This document shows positions 45,341-51,699 of a DNA stretch of 64,000 nt, piece after piece. Origin of the DNA: an uncultured delta proteobacterium (GTDB lineage: Bacteria > Desulfobacterota > Syntrophorhabdia > Syntrophorhabdales > WCHB1-27); contig CAVVPU010000053.1 in assembly GCA_963750015.1 (NCBI GenBank), positions 3,104 to 67,103 of the forward strand, read 5' to 3'. The position numbers and the translations under genes are program-made. Numbering within the stretch: position 1 is the first letter of the stretch; every line of letters begins with the position of its first letter. The notes below the pieces were generated by a model. That model saw only the letters and a list, made by a program, of their open reading frames with translations. It was not told the DNA's origin and did not search any database.

Positions 45341-46615
45341 ATGCTCGATCCCAAACTCATCAGAGAAAAGCCGGATATCGTGAGGGAAAGTCTGAAAGTG
45401 CGGGGCACTTCTTTCGATCTCGACCGTCTGGTCAAGCTCGATGGAGAAAGGCGCGACCTGATCAAGGAAGTGGAGGGACTGAAAAACCGGAGAAACGTCA
45501 CTTCCGATGAGATCGCCAAGCTCAGGAAGTCCGGGGTCGACGCCCAGGCACAGATCGCAGAGCTCAGGAACGTCGGGAAGCAGATAGAGACCCTGGAGCA
45601 GGACCTGAGGAAGGTCGAAGGGGAATGGGAGCTCGCGAGCATGGAAATCCCCAACATACCCCACGGCTCAGTCCCGATCGGCTCGGGCGACGAGCAAAAC
45701 GAAGTGGTCAAGGTATGGGGGGAGAAGCCTGCTTTCGCCTTCGAACCCGTTCCCCATTGGGACCTGGGTGAGCGCCTGGGAATACTCGATTTCAAGAGGG
45801 CGGCGAAGATTACCGGCTCCAGGTTCACCCTTTACAAGTCCTACGGCGCGCTCCTCGAGCGGGCCCTCATCAACTTCATGCTCGATCTCCACACGATGAA
45901 GCACGGCTATACCGAGGTCCTCCCTCCCTTCATGGTCAACAGGGACAGCATGACCGGGACGGGACAACTTCCCAAATTCGAGGAGGAGCTTTTCAAACTG
46001 GGAGACCCGGATTATTTTCTCATTCCCACGGCCGAGGTGCCGGTCACCAATATCTTCAGGGATGAGATTTTGAAAGAGAGCGACCTGCCTGTCAAATATG
46101 TGGCCTACACCCCCTGTTTCAGGAAGGAGGCCGGGGCCCACGGCAAAGATACCAGGGGACTCACCAGACAGCACCAGTTCAATAAGGTGGAGCTCGTCAA
46201 GTTCGCCCTGCCGGAAAATTCCTACAATGAGCTCGAAGGCCTGCTCCTCGACGCGGAGGACGTGCTGAAAAACCTGAACATTCACTACCGCGTCTCAGTG
46301 CTCTGCACAGGCGACCTCGGTTTCTCCTCGGCCAAGACCTATGACATCGAGGTCTGGCTGCCGGGACAGAACATCTACCGGGAGATCTCGTCGTGCAGCA
46401 ACTTCGACGATTTCCAGGCTCGAAGGGCGAGGATCAGGTATAAGACAGGCAAAGGAAAGACCGAGTTCGTCCACACCTTGAACGGCTCGGGCCTCGCCAT
46501 CGGCAGGACTGTCATGGCGGTTCTGGAGAACTATCAACTCCCGGACGGCACCGTTGAAGTGCCTGAAGCGTTGCGCCCCTACATGCATGGAATGCGAACG
46601 ATAGTAGCTGTCTAG
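45341..46615 (+). CDS. serS: serine--tRNA ligase
   Basis: Has an N-terminal coiled coil and class II motifs ([25 protein letters not shown]; GSGLAIGRT). Confidence 0.95.
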
Positions 46616-46716: not shown

Positions 46717-49007
46717 TTAGCCCGTCGAGGGGGTGCTGAACTCCAACCTAGGATTCGAGCTTCGCGAGCAGCCGATCAGAAGCCCGTCTATGCGGTCTAT
46801 CATCTCCGGCTCCCTCTCCACGTCTGCTATCCGTATGAGCAGGTCCCGGGCCGATATTTCAGGAAACTCGCAGATCCGCTCGACGACACGCTCCCTCGTT
46901 GCCCCATCCCCCATATCCGAAAGGATCTTCATGAGCGCGACGATTGCCCTCCTCTTGCCCGCCGCGACGACGTAATCGGCGAGGAGGCCGCGTAGCTCAG
47001 GTTCCCTTTCCTTTGGAAGGAGGGCCAGAATGGGGTTGATGATGCCTTCGCCCGACACATAGGGCAGCAGTCTGATGGCCTGCTCGCGCGTATACAGGTC
47101 CTCAGCGGCAAGCAACTGCAGAAGGGCCGCACCGTCGAGGCTGCCCGACTGCTGCTTCGTATTTTCGATAAAAGCCGTCCAGTCCCTCCTGAGAGGGACC
47201 ATGCTCGCGACGATCAGCCCTGCCTCCACCGTTGAGAAGATCATCCGTTCCCGAAGCCCCTCTATCAAGTCGAGTTCTTCGGCAGCGAGAAGGCGACCCT
47301 CTCCCACGGCGTCTGCGAGCTTGCGGCGGATCGCCCATTTATCAAGGGAGCGGCTCAAGTCAATGCGCTCCCTCAGCAGGTCCCGCACGTACCGGCCCGT
47401 AAGTGCATAGAAGAGGCCTCCGCCAAACTCATGGCGCCGCGCCACTCCGTTTTTCTCCAGAAACTCCAGGGCACGGTCGATCTCCTCTTCGGGCATGCAC
47501 GTGTCCGCAAGGATATCTTCCTTCGTATACCTCTTGAGCATCCCGTCGATCTCCCCTGCGAGCACGCCGACCACATCGACCAGGGATTCCCTCTCCAAAG
47601 CGGCCCTCACCACTTCATCGACACCCGTCTTCGACCCGTTTCCTGCCTGTCCATCCGATACAGGCTTGCGAACATCGATCGCAGGTGCGCGACCAGGCTC
47701 GTAAACCGCCCGGAGGCTCGTCCCCCTGAAGGGCCTGTACCAGTCGAAGAACGACCCCTTGTCACCGACGATAATGAGGTACGTGGCCTCATTATCGATG
47801 CAGAACTCGACAAGCCGCTCCAATTTGTCCAGCTCGTCTTCTTCAACGTTTTTCAGCCTCTCGCATCCATCGATGACGAAAAAGCACCTGCCCCGAGGCA
47901 GCAGCTCTTTACACATGGAGACCATATCGACCGCTCTCCCCTGCGGGGTCGAAGTGGCCCGCCCAGGGTTTCCCGTATCTGGTGCATCGGCCTGTCCCAC
48001 ACCTCGGTGTGAAAAACATTGGGCGACATACGGCGCAGCTGGGGCACCACGAATGAATCGACGAGGGTACTCTTTCCCGAAGTCCCGTCGCCCACCACAA
48101 CCACGTGCCCATATCGAAAAAGCTTGTCGAGGAGGCGTGAGGCTTCATCCCATGCGTCAAAGGATGCACCCTCAGAGGTTTCGAGGGCGGAAAGGACGGA
48201 GGCGTTCGCATTGACCGGAGGCAGACCAGTGCCCCCGGCCGTGTCCCAGACGATCTGTCTGTACTGAAAGCCGAGCCTTCCATTCACCGTCTCCCTGAAA
48301 CGCCTGAAGATGTACTCGACATAAGGCTTCACGCGGGACATCACGTGTTCCTCATAGGGTGTTTCGGGCGTGCAGCGGATAAGGATGGTCCCTGCCCTGC
48401 TGTCGATCTCGACTGACGCCTTTTCGCAGCAGAGGCGGAGATCACGATTCTGTCCCATCCTGAGGTGCGTATGAACGGCATCCGGAGAAAACAGGTCCCA
48501 CATGAGGTGGGCGAAATTGAAGATCTCCCCGAGGGCCCTTCCGTTTCTGACGATGGCCTTACGCGTATCTTCCCGGATTTCCCACTCGAGAGGTATCTTC
48601 TTTACCGAGAAGATCAGGGAATTGACGAGTTCCAGGGCTTTTTCGGGGATCGCGATCCTCTTGCCTATCTCGTCGTTGAAAAAGAGTCTCCTGGCCGGTC
48701 CCTCCATCTGATCGAGGAGGTCCCTGTTCGCGCTCCATTCATAGCGGCCCGCCACACCCAGGTCGTGAAAGTAGAGCGTGCACAGGAGCACGAAGATTTC
48801 CCCCGAAAACATCTCTTCTCTCCGGTCCGTAGGCTCAGGGAGGAGTCGTTCGACGAAATCCTTTAATTCTTCGATGTGCCTTTGAAGGGGGGAAGGCGCG
48901 GGCGGGAATACGGAACCTTCGCAGAAGGCTACGAGGTCCTCGAACTTCTGATAGAGCTTCAGCTCCCTTTCTTTGTCCCTGAGAACCGTTTCGAGCTTCG
49001 ATTGCAT
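46717..49007 (-). pseudogene. HD domain + P-loop NTPase + winged helix + HEAT repeats (STAND/Avs-like), one frame break
   Basis: ORF 47853..49007 has LCTLYFHDLG (HD) and VVVVGDGTSGKSTLV (Walker A). ORF 46717..48000 has CFFVIDGCERL (Walker B), a wHTH-like LEFLEKNGVARRHE and C-terminal HEAT-like repeats. The ORFs overlap by ~150 nt, and a 1-nt shift near 47955-47965 joins them into ~760 aa. Confidence 0.65.
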
Positions 49008-49196: not shown

Positions 49197-50102
49197 CTAT
49201 GCTCTCTTTCTCCACAGATAGATGAGAGGGCTTGCCACGAATATCGACGAATAGGTGCCGACCAGCACGCCGATGAAGAGGGCCAATGCGAAATCGAACA
49301 GGACCGGGCCGCCGATAACGATAAGCGCAGCCAGCACGAGAAGCACCGTGAGGGAGGTGATAAGGGTCCTGCTCAAGACCTCGTTGATGCTCGTGTTGAT
49401 GACTTCGCCCAAATCCGCCTTGGACTTCATCTTGGCCATGTTGTCCCTGATCCTGTCGTAAACGACGACAGTATCGGTGAGGGAATAGCCGGCGATGGTG
49501 AGGAGCGCCGTGATGAAGAGGATGTTCATCTCAAAATGGAGCAGATAGAATATGCCGAGGAGTGCGAGGACGTCATGAAAGGTGGCGATCGTCGCCGCCA
49601 CGCCGAAAACGAAATTGAACCTCCAGGCGATGTAAATGACTATGCCGAGGAGGGAAAGGACTATCGCGATGATCGCATCCCGTTTCAGGGTCTTGCCGAC
49701 GCTCGATCCCACCATGTTGCTCTCGAGCACCTGAAACTTCTTGTCCGGGAAAGCCTTGGTAATGATGCCACTGATCTTGTCCTGCACCCTCACGGGTCCC
49801 GTTTCGAGGAGCTTGGTCTTGATGAAGAAGTCGTTCTTCCCCGTCACCTGCTGGATCTCCGCGTCGGCTATGCCCCCTGTGGTCAAGGCGTTTCGAAGAT
49901 CGCCGATAGCGACGGGCTGGTCGAAGCGAATCTGCACGCTCGTTCCACCCGTGAAATCGACGCTCAGGTTCGCCTTGCCCGTGGCGACCATGATGAAGCC
50001 CAACAGTCCGAGTCCCACGAGCACGGCCGACAGCACAAAGGCCTTGTTCCGCAGACCTATGAAATCGATAGCGGTCTTTTTCGTTATCTCTCTAAATTTC
50101 AT
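49197..50102 (-). CDS. secF: protein translocase subunit SecF
   Basis: Typical SecF topology and motifs. Its ATG overlaps the secD stop (ATGA). Confidence 0.9.
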   Translation of the reverse strand: MKFREITKKTAIDFIGLRNKAFVLSAVLVGLGLLGFIMVATGKANLSVDFTGGTSVQIRFDQPVAIGDLRNALTTGGIADAEIQQVTGKNDFFIKTKLLETGPVRVQDKISGIITKAFPDKKFQVLESNMVGSSVGKTLKRDAIIAIVLSLLGIVIYIAWRFNFVFGVAATIATFHDVLALLGIFYLLHFEMNILFITALLTIAGYSLTDTVVVYDRIRDNMAKMKSKADLGEVINTSINEVLSRTLITSLTVLLVLAALIVIGGPVLFDFALALFIGVLVGTYSSIFVASPLIYLWRKRA

Positions 50103-51699
50103 CAGATGCTCAGACTCCTCGGTTTATACTTGGCGATTACCCAATCGAAGATCGCCTTCGACCCGAAGAAGGCGATGAACAGGTTGATGACGATGCCGAT
50201 GCTCAGGGTCACGGCAAAGCCCTTTATCGGGCCCGTTCCGAAAATGAAAAGGACGAGGGCCGTGATGAGGGTGGTGACGTGGGCGTCGATGATGGTAACC
50301 CACCCTTTGGCATAGCCGCCGTCTATGGCTGCCCTCACAGTCTTGCCTAGCCTCATCTCCTCGCGGATGCGCTCGAAGATGATGACGTTCGTATCGACTC
50401 CCATACCCATGGTGAGGATGATGCCGGCGATGCCGGGAAGGGTCATGGTGGCGTGTATCAGGGCGAAGGCCCCGAGCAGGTAGACCAGGTTGAGAAAGAG
50501 GGCGATATCGGCGACGACTCCCGAGCCCTTATAGTAGTAGACCATGAAAGCTATTATCAGCAAGCCCCCGAGGATCGCGGCCTGCACTCCCCGCCTGATG
50601 GCGTCCTGTCCGAGGGTGGGGCCCACGGTAATGTTCTGTATTACGTTCACAGGCGCAGGCAGGGCCCCTGCCCGGAGCACGATGGCCAGGTCCTTTGCCT
50701 CGTCAGGGGTGAAGCTGCCCGTGATCTGGGCTTGACCGCCGGATATGCGCTCCCTGATGGAAGGTGCGGAGTAGACCGTGTTATCGAGGATGATCGCCAG
50801 CCGCTTCCCCACGTTCTCGCCTGTCACCTGGTCGAAGATACGGGCGCCTTCGCTGTTGAAGCTTATGCCACGTAGGGTCCGTTGTTTCCTATGCCGCCAC
50901 CCCCCAACTTGACCTGGGCGTCGGTGAGCAGCTCACCCGTGAGAATCGTCTCCTTCTTCACGAGTATGGTGGAGGTCGTCGTTATTCCCGTCTCCGGGTT
51001 CCTTTCCCTGTAGGGAAGCAGCTCGTCGCCTTCAGGCAGCGGGCCGCCGGGAGTCGCGCCATGCGATTCGTCGACGAGCTTGAACTGAAGCTGTGCCGTC
51101 CGGCCGATGAGGGCCAAGGCCCTTTCCGGGTCCTTGATACCGGGAAGCTCGACGAGGATCTCATTCTCCCCCTGTTGCTGGATCACGGGCTCCGACACGC
51201 CGAGTTGGTCTATTCTGTTCCTGATCGTCTCCAAGGCCTGATGGACGGCATTGTCCTTCAGACTCGCGAGCTGGGTCATGGTATAGGATATATCCAGATA
51301 GAGATCGGTCCCTTCCGTCCTGCTTCCGCTCTCCCTGAACTCGGGCAGTTCCTTGCCCAGGAGGTTTTCGAAGTTCTGCCGCTGGTCCGTCTTGACGGCC
51401 ACGGTGATGCGGTCCGATTTCCGGTCGAGGGCCGTAAACCTGATGTTATCCCGTATCATGCCTTCCTTGAGCTGGTCGGCCTTCCGGTCGAGGAGTTGCT
51501 CCATCATCTTGCTCATGTCGAGTTGGAGCAGAAGGCGCATGCCTCCCTGCAGGTCGAGCCCGAGGTGTATCTTCTCCGAAGGGAGGTACTCTTTTACCGT
51601 CCCCGTCAGTTCCACAAAATTGGGAAGGAGAAAGACCACGGCCACCACCAGGAAGACCAATATGAGAATTGCTCTCACTTTCAATGATAATTTCAGCAC
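50102..51699 (-). pseudogene. secD: protein translocase subunit SecD, split by a 1-nt indel (probably an assembly error)
   Basis: ORFs 50863..51699 and 50102..50827 are involved. Adding one base at CC 50868-50869 gives ..[45 protein letters not shown].., the canonical SecD sequence. Confidence 0.85.

What the first reader, a model, noticed from the sequence alone, without database searches (positions are those of the whole stretch)
46717..49007. HD + P-loop NTPase + wHTH + HEAT-repeat protein: STAND/Avs-like candidate defence or signalling ATPase
Joining the two overlapping ORFs gives about 760 aa. The domains are:
- an N-terminal HD motif (LYFHDLG, with an earlier His)
- Walker A GDGTSGKST
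- Walker B FFVIDG
- a winged-helix-like segment
- C-terminal HEAT-like repeats (..LLPYVSGEGIINPILALLPKEREPELRGLLADYVVAAG..)

An effector followed by a STAND NTPase and then a repeat sensor is the logic of antiviral STAND (Avs) and related NLR-like proteins. The gene sits alone between serS and secF with no mobile-element context.

The single frame break near 47955-47965 lies in G/C runs and may be an assembly error.
Basis: partly seen in the sequence, partly recalled or inferred. Interest (0 to 1): 0.6.

Follow-up and report, generated by a model that had tools for sequence, protein, structure and literature searches.

The report
Order-wide HD–STAND–HEAT switch behind secDF
The two overlapping reading frames are one roughly 760-residue gene for an immune-receptor-like (NLR-type) ATPase with an HD hydrolase head and a short HEAT-repeat tail. 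Unlike typical defence genes, it is inherited vertically at one fixed place, just downstream of secDF, across a whole order of anaerobic bacteria, and the break in it is probably an assembly error.

Summary
ORFs 47853-49007 and 46717-48000 (minus strand) are two pieces of one gene, about 764 aa when joined. Intact relatives are single ORFs of 743-780 aa.

**Architecture**
- Residues 1-258: an HD-CE-like HD phosphohydrolase domain, with H44, H81-D82, H167 and D171 invariant.
- Centre: a divergent nSTAND1-type P-loop NTPase followed by a winged helix.
- C-terminus: PBS-type HEAT repeats.

AlphaFold and Foldseek place the core with STAND-TPR, Orc1/Cdc6, Avs4, Apaf-1 and plant NLRs.

**Not a typical defence gene**
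- It does not hit any Avs or bNACHT model in a meaningful way.
- It is single-copy in 76 of 96 Syntrophorhabdales genomes.
- It always sits in the order secD-secF-X, convergent with serS.
- Its dS matches its neighbours, and dN/dS is 0.13-0.27 in every domain.
- No full-length relative was found in about 290 other sampled genomes of the phylum.

**The frame break**
The break (47957-47966) is a one-base loss. About 7% of comparable genes in this MAG, including secD, are broken in the same way, so it is probably artefactual. A second frame problem affects the last codons.

**Verdict:** a new member of the NLR-like STAND kind. A defence role is plausible but unproven.

The parts
46717..49007 (-). 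Whole gene X (HD-CE-like + nSTAND1-like NTPase + wHTH + HEAT). In this assembly it is split into two overlapping ORFs.
   Evidence: full-length alignment to 743-780-aa single-ORF homologues.
48234..49007 (-). N-terminal HD-superfamily domain (residues 1-258), HD-CE-like. The putative metal ligands H44, H81-D82, H167 and D171 are invariant.
   Evidence: Pfam HD-CE scores 22.8-24.5 bits, below the GA of 27, but it is the only match in the genome and gives none in 14 control genomes. hhalign to a bona fide HD-CE protein gives prob 85%, E 6.6e-6. AF2 pLDDT 86; Foldseek finds the PPX/GppA HD-like domain, YhaM, SAMHD1 and HD-GYP.
48756..48776 (-). LYFHDLG, the HD dyad (H81-D82).
48066..48092 (-). 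Walker A GDGTSGKST (G306, G311 and K312 invariant).
47957..47966 (-). Frame break. One base is missing within ctgggcgggcc, between ..IRETLG and RATSTPQGRAVD..
47860..47886 (-). Walker B CFFVIDGCE (Asp and Glu invariant; NACHT/nSTAND-like hhhhDGxE).
47374..47541 (-). Winged-helix domain that follows the NTPase and its helical domain.
   Evidence: The PDB profile search hits HlyU/ArsR/SmtB wHTH chains. AF2 shows an H-H-E-E-H topology.
46777..47133 (-). PBS-type HEAT repeats (putative sensor / protein-binding module).
   Evidence: alphaRep/PBS-HEAT chains at E 1e-33 to 1e-9. Pfam HEAT_2 in 33 of 41 members.
46748..46776 (-). Second frame problem. The canonical C-terminus LLAKLES-stop is in another frame, and the annotated frame ends in a non-homologous 19-aa tail.
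49197..51699 (-). secD (itself frame-broken at about 50866-50869) and secF, the conserved same-strand upstream neighbours.
45341..46615 (+). serS, the conserved convergent downstream neighbour.

Best explanation
X is one gene for a cytoplasmic NLR-like STAND switch of about 750-765 aa, specific to the order Syntrophorhabdales.

**Shown**
- The domain order is an HD-CE-type HD phosphohydrolase, then a divergent nSTAND1-type P-loop NTPase with a helical and a winged-helix domain, then a short PBS-HEAT array.
- Catalytic-type residues of both the HD and the NTPase are invariant.
- The gene is single-copy, sits immediately downstream of secD-secF on the same strand, convergent with serS, and has been inherited vertically under purifying selection.

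**Inferred by analogy with Apaf-1, Avs and NLR proteins**
- The HEAT array binds a protein or ligand.
- Binding permits nucleotide-dependent oligomerisation of the NTPase.
- Oligomerisation brings the HD domains together and switches on hydrolysis of a nucleic acid or nucleotide substrate.

**Origin and role**
- The family most likely descends from conflict-system NLRs. Its nearest relatives are SIR2-nSTAND1-HEAT giants and HD-CE-NACHT-FGE proteins next to a reverse transcriptase.
- It has become a fixed chromosomal gene of this order. Whether its trigger is a phage protein or an endogenous signal is unknown.

**The breaks**
- The frame break in this window, and the one at the 3' end, are most likely consensus indel errors of the MAG.
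For: **Architecture**
- Pfam hits in the 41 members are nSTAND1 34, HEAT_2 33, AAA_22 30, HD-CE 26.
- wHTH and PBS-HEAT matches in the PDB.
- AF2 pLDDT 84, pTM 0.73. Top Foldseek hits are 6mfv STAND-TPR, Orc1/Cdc6, Avs4 (8dgf), a wheat resistosome, Apaf-1 and NLRP9.
- the N-terminal domain has an HD-superfamily fold.
- hhalign to the SIR2-nSTAND1-HEAT protein P0077 gives prob 94%, E 1.6e-7 over 365 columns.
- alignment to a bona fide HD-CE-NACHT-FGE protein covers the H and HD motifs.

**Vertical inheritance**
- 76 of 96 genomes and 22 of 26 genera, one copy each, with identity tiered by genus, family and order.
- secD-secF-X adjacency in all 18 loci; in the 14 whose fetched stretch also holds serS, it is convergent with X and keeps its own neighbours (gerM-like, isochorismatase-like, tatD).
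- X dS is 0.30 and 0.72, against secF 0.29 and 0.59, for the same genome pairs. dN/dS is 0.13-0.27 in all four domains.
- the full-length family collapses to 3 clusters at 50% identity in 1.84 billion proteins. No N-domain match was found outside the order in about 290 genomes of the phylum.

**Artefactual break**
- 8 of 107 loci are frame-broken.
- secD is broken by a one-base loss.
Against: **Domain assignments**
- Pfam scores for the window's own pieces are below the curated cut-offs (HD-CE 22.8 bits, nSTAND1 14.2 bits).
- Foldseek E-values are modest: 5e-5 for the whole protein and 6e-3 for the HD domain.
- A canonical sensor-1 Arg is not evident (LGDKE where nSTAND1 has LREDF), so NTP hydrolysis could be impaired.

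**The breaks**
- Three indels lie within 4.1 kb (two in X, one in secD). That is more than the genome-wide rate of about 1 per 15 kb predicts.

**Dispensability**
- The gene is absent from family f3 and genus g4, decayed in G036 and truncated in G064/G066.
Confidence: 0.62

Rival explanations
1. X is a bona fide antiviral STAND (Avs/NLR-like) abortive-infection sensor. The HEAT array recognises a conserved phage protein, and the HD domain then degrades DNA, RNA or dNTPs and kills or arrests the cell. It simply happens to be fixed in the core genome of this order.
For: - The tripartite architecture and fold match Avs4, Apaf-1 and NLRs.
- The nearest relatives are conflict-system proteins: SIR2-nSTAND1-HEAT and HD-CE-NACHT-FGE next to a reverse transcriptase.
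- nSTAND1 was defined in counter-invader systems (PMC8195603; PMC10907252).
- The gene evolves about twice as fast as its neighbours and has been lost repeatedly.
Against: - No meaningful Avs or bNACHT hit in PADLOC.
- Fixed locus, single copy, vertical descent, and no neighbouring defence or mobile genes.
- dN/dS of the HEAT part is 0.13-0.30 with no sign of diversification.
- The repeat array is very short compared with known sensors.
Confidence: 0.3
2. X is a housekeeping signalling or metabolic enzyme, for example a nucleotide, alarmone or polyphosphate hydrolase gated by an NTP switch. It may be functionally tied to the SecDF operon that it follows.
For: - Order-wide synteny directly behind secF on the same strand, with gaps of about 50-190 nt.
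- Purifying selection over the whole length.
- The best fold matches of the N-terminal domain are the C-terminal HD-like domain of exopolyphosphatase/GppA.
Against: - No NCBIfam or housekeeping family hit.
- Absent from complete genomes of family f3, genus g4 and several g16 members.
- Not found outside one order.
- The PPX fold match is weak (E 6e-3), and that PPX domain is not the catalytic one (my own knowledge).
- The intergenic region is not conserved, and co-transcription with secDF is untested.
Confidence: 0.25
3. In this particular genome X is a real, decaying pseudogene. The breaks are genuine mutations, not assembly errors.
For: - There are two frame disruptions in 2.3 kb, against a genome-wide rate of about 1 per 15 kb.
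- The gene has decayed or been truncated in other lineages: G036 and G064/G066.
Against: - secD, 2.9 kb away, and about 7% of conserved genes across many contigs carry the same kind of one-base indel.
- Apart from the indels, the window's copy has no stops and keeps every invariant residue of the family.
Confidence: 0.25
4. X is a MalT/AfsR-like STAND transcription factor that binds DNA through its winged helix.
For: - The wHTH segment matches ArsR/HlyU/SmtB-type regulators (E 0.004-0.07).
- A few members hit MarR_2 or TrmB.
- One JGI record names it an ArsR-family regulator.
Against: - A winged helix after the NTPase is an integral part of every STAND/Orc module.
- There is no terminal LuxR- or OmpR-type DNA-binding effector.
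- The conserved N-terminal enzyme domain occupies the effector position.
Confidence: 0.08

Closest known systems
nSTAND1-clade STAND NTPases of prokaryotic conflict systems (Kaur et al. 2021, PMC8195603; Pfam PF20703), e.g. the SIR2_2-nSTAND1-HEAT giants P0077, P0078 and P0094
   Same: - Effector / NTPase / wHTH / HEAT order.
- A GxxGxGKT(T/S)L..(V/I)P.L Walker A region, a D-x-x-E Walker B, and PBS-type HEAT repeats.
- hhalign prob 94% over 365 columns.
   Different: - The effector is an HD domain rather than SIR2.
- The helical domain is shortened.
- There are only about 4-5 HEAT repeats, against dozens in the giants (750 aa against 1500-2400 aa).
- Pfam scores are mostly at or below the cut-off.
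- Vertical and syntenic in a single order.
HD-CE-NACHT/nSTAND3-FGE-sulfatase proteins next to a reverse transcriptase (DGR-type diversified STAND sensors; PMC10907252), e.g. G222 L051:2361-5012
   Same: - An N-terminal HD-CE-type domain with aligned H and HD motifs (28% identity over 94 columns).
- It is followed by a STAND NTPase and a C-terminal binding domain.
   Different: - A different NTPase clade and a different sensor (FGE/C-type lectin against HEAT).
- The G222 locus has an adjacent reverse transcriptase. X has no diversification machinery, and its C-terminus is under purifying selection.
Avs1-5 antiviral STAND proteins (Gao et al. 2022; Avs4 structure 8dgf)
   Same: - Tripartite logic: an N-terminal hydrolytic effector, a STAND ATPase and a helical-repeat sensor.
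- Foldseek hit to 8dgf at E 9e-5.
   Different: - No PADLOC Avs model is matched.
- Half the size.
- Not patchy or island-borne.
- The trigger is unknown.
Apaf-1 / plant NLR / ORC-Cdc6 AAA+ modules
   Same: NBD plus helical plus winged-helix core fold.
   Different: About 10-14% identity only. The effector and sensor domains are different, and this is a bacterial lineage-specific family.

Membership tests
STAND NTPase class (Leipe et al. 2004) | P-loop NTPase with conserved Walker A (GxxxxGK[ST]) and Walker B acidic residues | tested here: met
   GDGTSGKST and CFFVIDGCE. G306, G311, K312 and the Walker B Asp and Glu are invariant in 16-42 sequences.
STAND NTPase class (Leipe et al. 2004) | Helical and winged-helix domains directly C-terminal to the NTPase | tested here: met
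   AF2 topology. wHTH matches in the PDB. Foldseek to 6mfv, Apaf-1, Avs4 and NLRP9.
STAND NTPase class (Leipe et al. 2004) | C-terminal superstructure-forming repeats, with an effector domain at the other end | tested here: met
   PBS-HEAT at E 1e-33. N-terminal HD-like domain.
STAND NTPase class (Leipe et al. 2004) | Canonical sensor-1 arginine and the other STAND-specific motifs | tested here: inconclusive
   The family has LGDKE where nSTAND1 P0077 has LREDF. No invariant Arg is seen at that strand end.
Pfam nSTAND1 (PF20703) | Score above the curated gathering cut-off (27.1 bits) | tested here: inconclusive
   The window's piece scores 14.2 bits, and X is not among the genome's six-frame hits. 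34 of 41 homologues match at E <= 0.01, best 5.2e-8. hhalign to a bona fide member gives prob 94%.
Pfam HD-CE (PF24391) / HD superfamily | Score above the curated cut-off (27 bits) | tested here: not met
   22.8-24.5 bits. It is nevertheless the only hit in the genome, with none in 14 control genomes. 26 of 41 homologues match at E <= 0.01. hhalign gives prob 85%, E 6.6e-6.
Pfam HD-CE (PF24391) / HD superfamily | H...HD...D metal-binding residues on an all-helical core | tested here: met
   H44, H81-D82, H167 and D171 are invariant. Fold matches to the PPX/GppA HD-like domain, YhaM, SAMHD1 and HD-GYP. Spatial clustering was not checkable because no coordinates were available.
Avs1-5 (antiviral STAND) | Match to the family profile models (PADLOC / DefenseFinder type) | tested here: not met
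   No Avs hit for the window's pieces. One of 41 homologues hits Avs4 at E 0.0087.
Avs1-5 (antiviral STAND) | Patchy, island-associated, horizontally mobile distribution typical of defence genes | tested here: not met
   76 of 96 genomes carry it at a fixed syntenic locus, with dS equal to that of the neighbours.
Avs1-5 (antiviral STAND) | Recognition of a phage protein and protection from infection | not testable with these tools
   Needs experiments.
bNACHT (Pfam NACHT PF05729) | NACHT profile match | tested here: not met
   Only 4 of 41 members match, best E 1.7e-4.
MalT/LAL-type STAND regulators | A terminal LuxR- or OmpR-type DNA-binding effector domain | tested here: not met
   No such Pfam domain. 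The only HTH is the internal winged helix of the STAND module.

The most novel reading that the evidence does not exclude
A conflict-system NLR (HD-CE effector plus nSTAND1 plus HEAT) was captured once at the base of Syntrophorhabdales. It has since been kept as a core, non-diversifying chromosomal gene behind secDF. That would make it a domesticated bacterial NLR that now senses an endogenous state (for example protein-export, envelope or nutritional stress) and answers with an HD hydrolase, and no longer a phage sensor.
Probability: 0.2. Interest if true: 0.6.

Novelty: new member of a known kind. Interest (0 to 1): 0.33.

Why it matters
Bacterial NLR-like STAND proteins are usually studied as mobile, patchy, fast-diversifying phage sensors. 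This family has the same architecture but behaves like a lineage core gene. It is present in one copy at one locus in about 80% of the genomes of an order, and its sensor is under purifying selection.

If it is immune, it is an example of a hard-wired, germline-like NLR in bacteria. If it is not, it shows a conflict-system module re-used for cell physiology.

On the practical side, the family is unannotated ('hypothetical' or 'HEAT repeat protein') and is missed by NCBIfam and PADLOC. The result also flags that this MAG carries about one frame-breaking indel per 10-15 kb, which affects every gene call made from it.

Tried and rejected
- **Reads at the break.** The artefact question rests on indirect evidence only.
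- **Sequence-profile search of the PDB.** It found nothing for the HD or NTPase parts, only HEAT and wHTH.
- **NCBIfam.** No family.
- **PADLOC.** Only generic P-loop, wHTH and HEAT matches (mad8, Csa3, HEAT-ARM_XIII). I rejected these as evidence of membership in those systems.
- **Literature search for 'HD-CE'.** It returned only unrelated medical abbreviations. The meaning of the Pfam name is inferred from its occurrence in STAND proteins.
- **Promoter/terminator scan and upstream alignment.** No convincing terminator after secF and no conserved promoter-like motif, so operon status is undecided.
- **BFVD fold search of the HD domain.** Only weak HD/PDEase hits.
- **Programmed frameshifting.** I considered it for the break and rejected it. 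About 60 of the 76 genomes that carry the gene read through in one frame, the site is not conserved, and secD shows the same defect.
- **Model coordinates.** They were not available in the Python box, so active-site geometry was not checked.
Full report
**1. Observation**

On the minus strand, ORF 47853-49007 (384 aa) and ORF 46717-48000 (427 aa) overlap by 148 nt, in frames that differ by one base. A word-indexed search of 5.8 billion proteins with the joined 764-aa sequence returned 59 relatives. Nearly all are single ORFs of 743-780 aa covering 97-98% of the query (E 2e-272 to 1e-116, 36-62% identity). Those that carry a name are from Syntrophorhabdales MAGs.

The multiple alignment runs straight across the overlap. 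The N-terminal frame is homologous up to ..HQIRETLG, and the C-terminal frame from RATSTPQGRAVDMVS.. onward. This places the break in ctgggcgggcc at 47957-47966 and requires one missing base.

The family's canonical C-terminus (IDRIDGxLxKLE[ES]-stop) is encoded at 46748-46776 in a different frame (..LLAKLES*). The annotated frame runs on into a 19-residue non-homologous tail.

**2. Is the break real?**

- The window lies in a 278-contig MAG (95.8% complete, 7% contamination).
- I took uninterrupted ORFs from 200 kb of two relatives (G087, G057) and laid them on the whole MAG. Of 107 distinct homologous loci (117 kb), 8 are split between two frames. They include secD, an 1181-aa protein that is 83% identical, and genes on contigs C13, C81, C93, C136 and C236.
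- secD, 2.9 kb upstream of X, lacks one base at gtggc^ataagc, about 50866-50869. In every relative examined the two halves of secD are in one frame.

A rate of roughly one frame-breaking indel per 10-15 kb across conserved genes points to consensus error rather than gene decay. The window's X otherwise has no stops and keeps all family-invariant residues. The caveat is that three indels within 4.1 kb is more than the average rate predicts. I put about 70-75% on artefact.

**3. What the protein is**

Pfam on the two pieces gives only sub-threshold hits: HD-CE 22.8 bits, nSTAND1 14.2 bits, HEAT_2 23.2 bits. Across 41 intact homologues the same families recur: nSTAND1 34/41 (best E 5e-8), HEAT_2 33, AAA_22 30, HD-CE 26, nSTAND3 18.

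AlphaFold2 on the closest intact homologue (P0001, 59% identical), using the family alignment, gave pLDDT 84 and pTM 0.73. Its Foldseek matches in the PDB are:
- a STAND-TPR protein (6mfv);
- archaeal Orc1/Cdc6;
- Avs4 bound to a phage portal (8dgf);
- a wheat resistosome;
- Apaf-1 and NLRP9.

These have E 5e-5 to 1.5e-3 and prob about 1.0. A profile search of PDB sequences places a winged helix at profile positions 497-549 (HlyU/ArsR/SmtB). It also places PBS-type HEAT repeats at 629-735 (alphaRep, E 1e-33).

The window's own first 270 residues fold confidently (pLDDT 86, pTM 0.86). Their best structural neighbours are all HD-superfamily: the C-terminal HD-like domain of exopolyphosphatase/GppA (E 6e-3, TM 0.41/0.52), YhaM, SAMHD1, HD-GYP and the HD domain of CCA-adding enzymes. 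Viral HD/PDEase hydrolases match only weakly.

In six-frame searches the HD-CE model matches nowhere else in this genome and in none of 14 control genomes.

**4. Nearest relatives outside the family**

An exhaustive HMMER search of 1.84 billion representatives finds only three full-length clusters at 50% identity, plus fragments. After that come HEAT-repeat giants.
- Three of these (P0077, P0078, P0094; 1530-2400 aa) are SIR2_2 + nSTAND1 (E 1e-51 to 1e-60) + dozens of HEAT repeats.
- hhalign aligns the X family to P0077 over 365 columns, from Walker A to the first HEAT repeat (prob 94%, E 1.6e-7).
- Among about 290 genomes of the phylum outside the order, the N-terminal domain has no full-length match.
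- The best weak hit there is an 883-aa ORF with a bona fide HD-CE domain (E 7e-21), a NACHT/nSTAND3 NTPase and a C-terminal FGE-sulfatase domain, followed by a reverse-transcriptase gene.
- That layout is the DGR-type diversified STAND sensor described in PMC10907252. hhalign aligns X residues 43-137, including H44 and H81-D82, to its HD-CE domain (28% identity, prob 85%, E 6.6e-6).

nSTAND1 was defined as a STAND clade of counter-invader systems (PMC8195603). X is therefore built from parts typical of conflict-system NLRs.

**5. How the gene behaves in genomes**

In 96 species-level genomes of the order, 76 have a match (52 of 68 high-quality genomes; 22 of 26 genera), essentially always one copy. 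Identity falls in tiers: about 59% within the genus, 46-53% within the family, 35-41% in other families. About 60 of the 76 read through in one frame.

In all 18 loci fetched from three families, X directly follows secD-secF on the same strand, with gaps of about 50-190 nt. In the 14 whose fetched stretch also holds serS, X is convergent with serS, which keeps its own neighbours (gerM-like, isochorismatase-like and tatD genes).

Selection and divergence:

| Comparison | X | secF | serS |
|---|---|---|---|
| dS, first genome pair (L014/L016) | 0.30 | 0.29 | not computed |
| dS, second genome pair (L015/L018) | 0.72 | 0.59 | 0.65 |
| dN/dS | 0.13-0.27 | 0.06-0.11 | 0.10 |

- dN/dS of X is 0.13-0.27 in each of its four domains, the HEAT part included.
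- Identity of X to the window tracks that of secF and serS (Spearman 0.6).

The gene is nevertheless dispensable:
- In family f3 (1.5-2 Mb genomes) secF abuts serS with about 20 nt between them.
- In genus g4 a TctC gene, with or without TRAP-transporter and UbiD genes, takes its place.
- Some g16 genomes are rearranged.
- G036 carries a multi-frame remnant with a stop while its neighbours are intact.
- G064 and G066 have a 477-aa version that lacks the HEAT part.

This is the profile of a vertically inherited, lineage-specific, moderately constrained gene. It is not the profile of a mobile defence island gene.

**6. Mechanism**

Shown:
- the domain order;
- intact NTP-binding and HD metal-site residues;
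- the STAND-type fold;
- purifying selection on all parts.

Inferred by analogy with Apaf-1, Avs and NLR proteins:
- the HEAT array (about 4-5 repeats) holds the protein in an off state until it binds a ligand or protein;
- nucleotide-dependent oligomerisation then juxtaposes the HD domains and activates hydrolysis of a nucleic acid or nucleotide.

The substrate and the trigger are unknown. The lack of an obvious sensor-1 arginine (LGDKE against LREDF in nSTAND1) leaves open that the module acts as a binding switch more than as a hydrolase.

**7. Comparison and membership**

X works like an NLR/Avs-type protein, but it is not a member of Avs1-5 or bNACHT (PADLOC and Pfam tests not met). It is best filed as a divergent, miniaturised offshoot of the nSTAND1 clade with an HD-CE-like effector.

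No NCBIfam model covers it. Source annotations read 'hypothetical protein' or 'HEAT repeat domain-containing protein'. The scan noted the same architecture behind secDF in another genome (e1-3855787).

**8. Verdict**

This is a new member of a known kind (NLR-like STAND NTPases). Its one unusual trait is order-wide vertical fixation next to secDF.

- Probability that it is an HD-STAND-HEAT switch as described: about 0.85.
- Probability that it is specifically antiviral: about 0.3.
- Probability that the break is an assembly artefact: about 0.7-0.75.
- Interest is moderate to low (0.33).

Noticed in passing
window 50861-50871 (secD, minus strand): secD is split into 50863-51699 and 50102-50827 by a one-base loss at gtggc^ataagc. 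Relatives have a single 530-aa frame.
   Followed up: yes
G000 contigs C13, C81, C93, C136 (two sites), C236: 8 of 107 loci compared with uninterrupted ORFs of relatives are frame-broken in this MAG, with both +1 and -1 shifts. That is about one per 15 kb, so gene calls from this assembly need caution.
   Followed up: partly
window 46748-46776: The canonical C-terminus LLAKLES-stop of gene X lies in a different frame from the rest of the C-terminal ORF. This is a second indel in the same gene.
   Followed up: partly
L051:2361-6500 (G222, another family of the phylum): An 883-aa HD-CE + NACHT/nSTAND3 + FGE-sulfatase protein is immediately followed by a reverse-transcriptase gene. This is a DGR-like diversified STAND sensor locus.
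   Followed up: partly
L043:300-6200 and L042:400-1650 (G089, G090, genus g4): Between secF and serS, where X normally sits, these genomes carry a TctC-family receptor gene. G089 additionally has TRAP transporter (DctM, DctP) and UbiD-family decarboxylase genes there.
   Followed up: partly
L030:6465-8451 (G036); L028:7435-8772 (G064): In G036, X is a multi-frame remnant with a stop while secD, secF and serS are intact. In G064 and G066 a 477-aa version lacks the wHTH and HEAT part.
   Followed up: partly
L017:5716-7539 (G082) and L031:9386-12362 (G081): An extra 1.8-3 kb is inserted between X and serS in some relatives. Its content was not examined.
   Followed up: no
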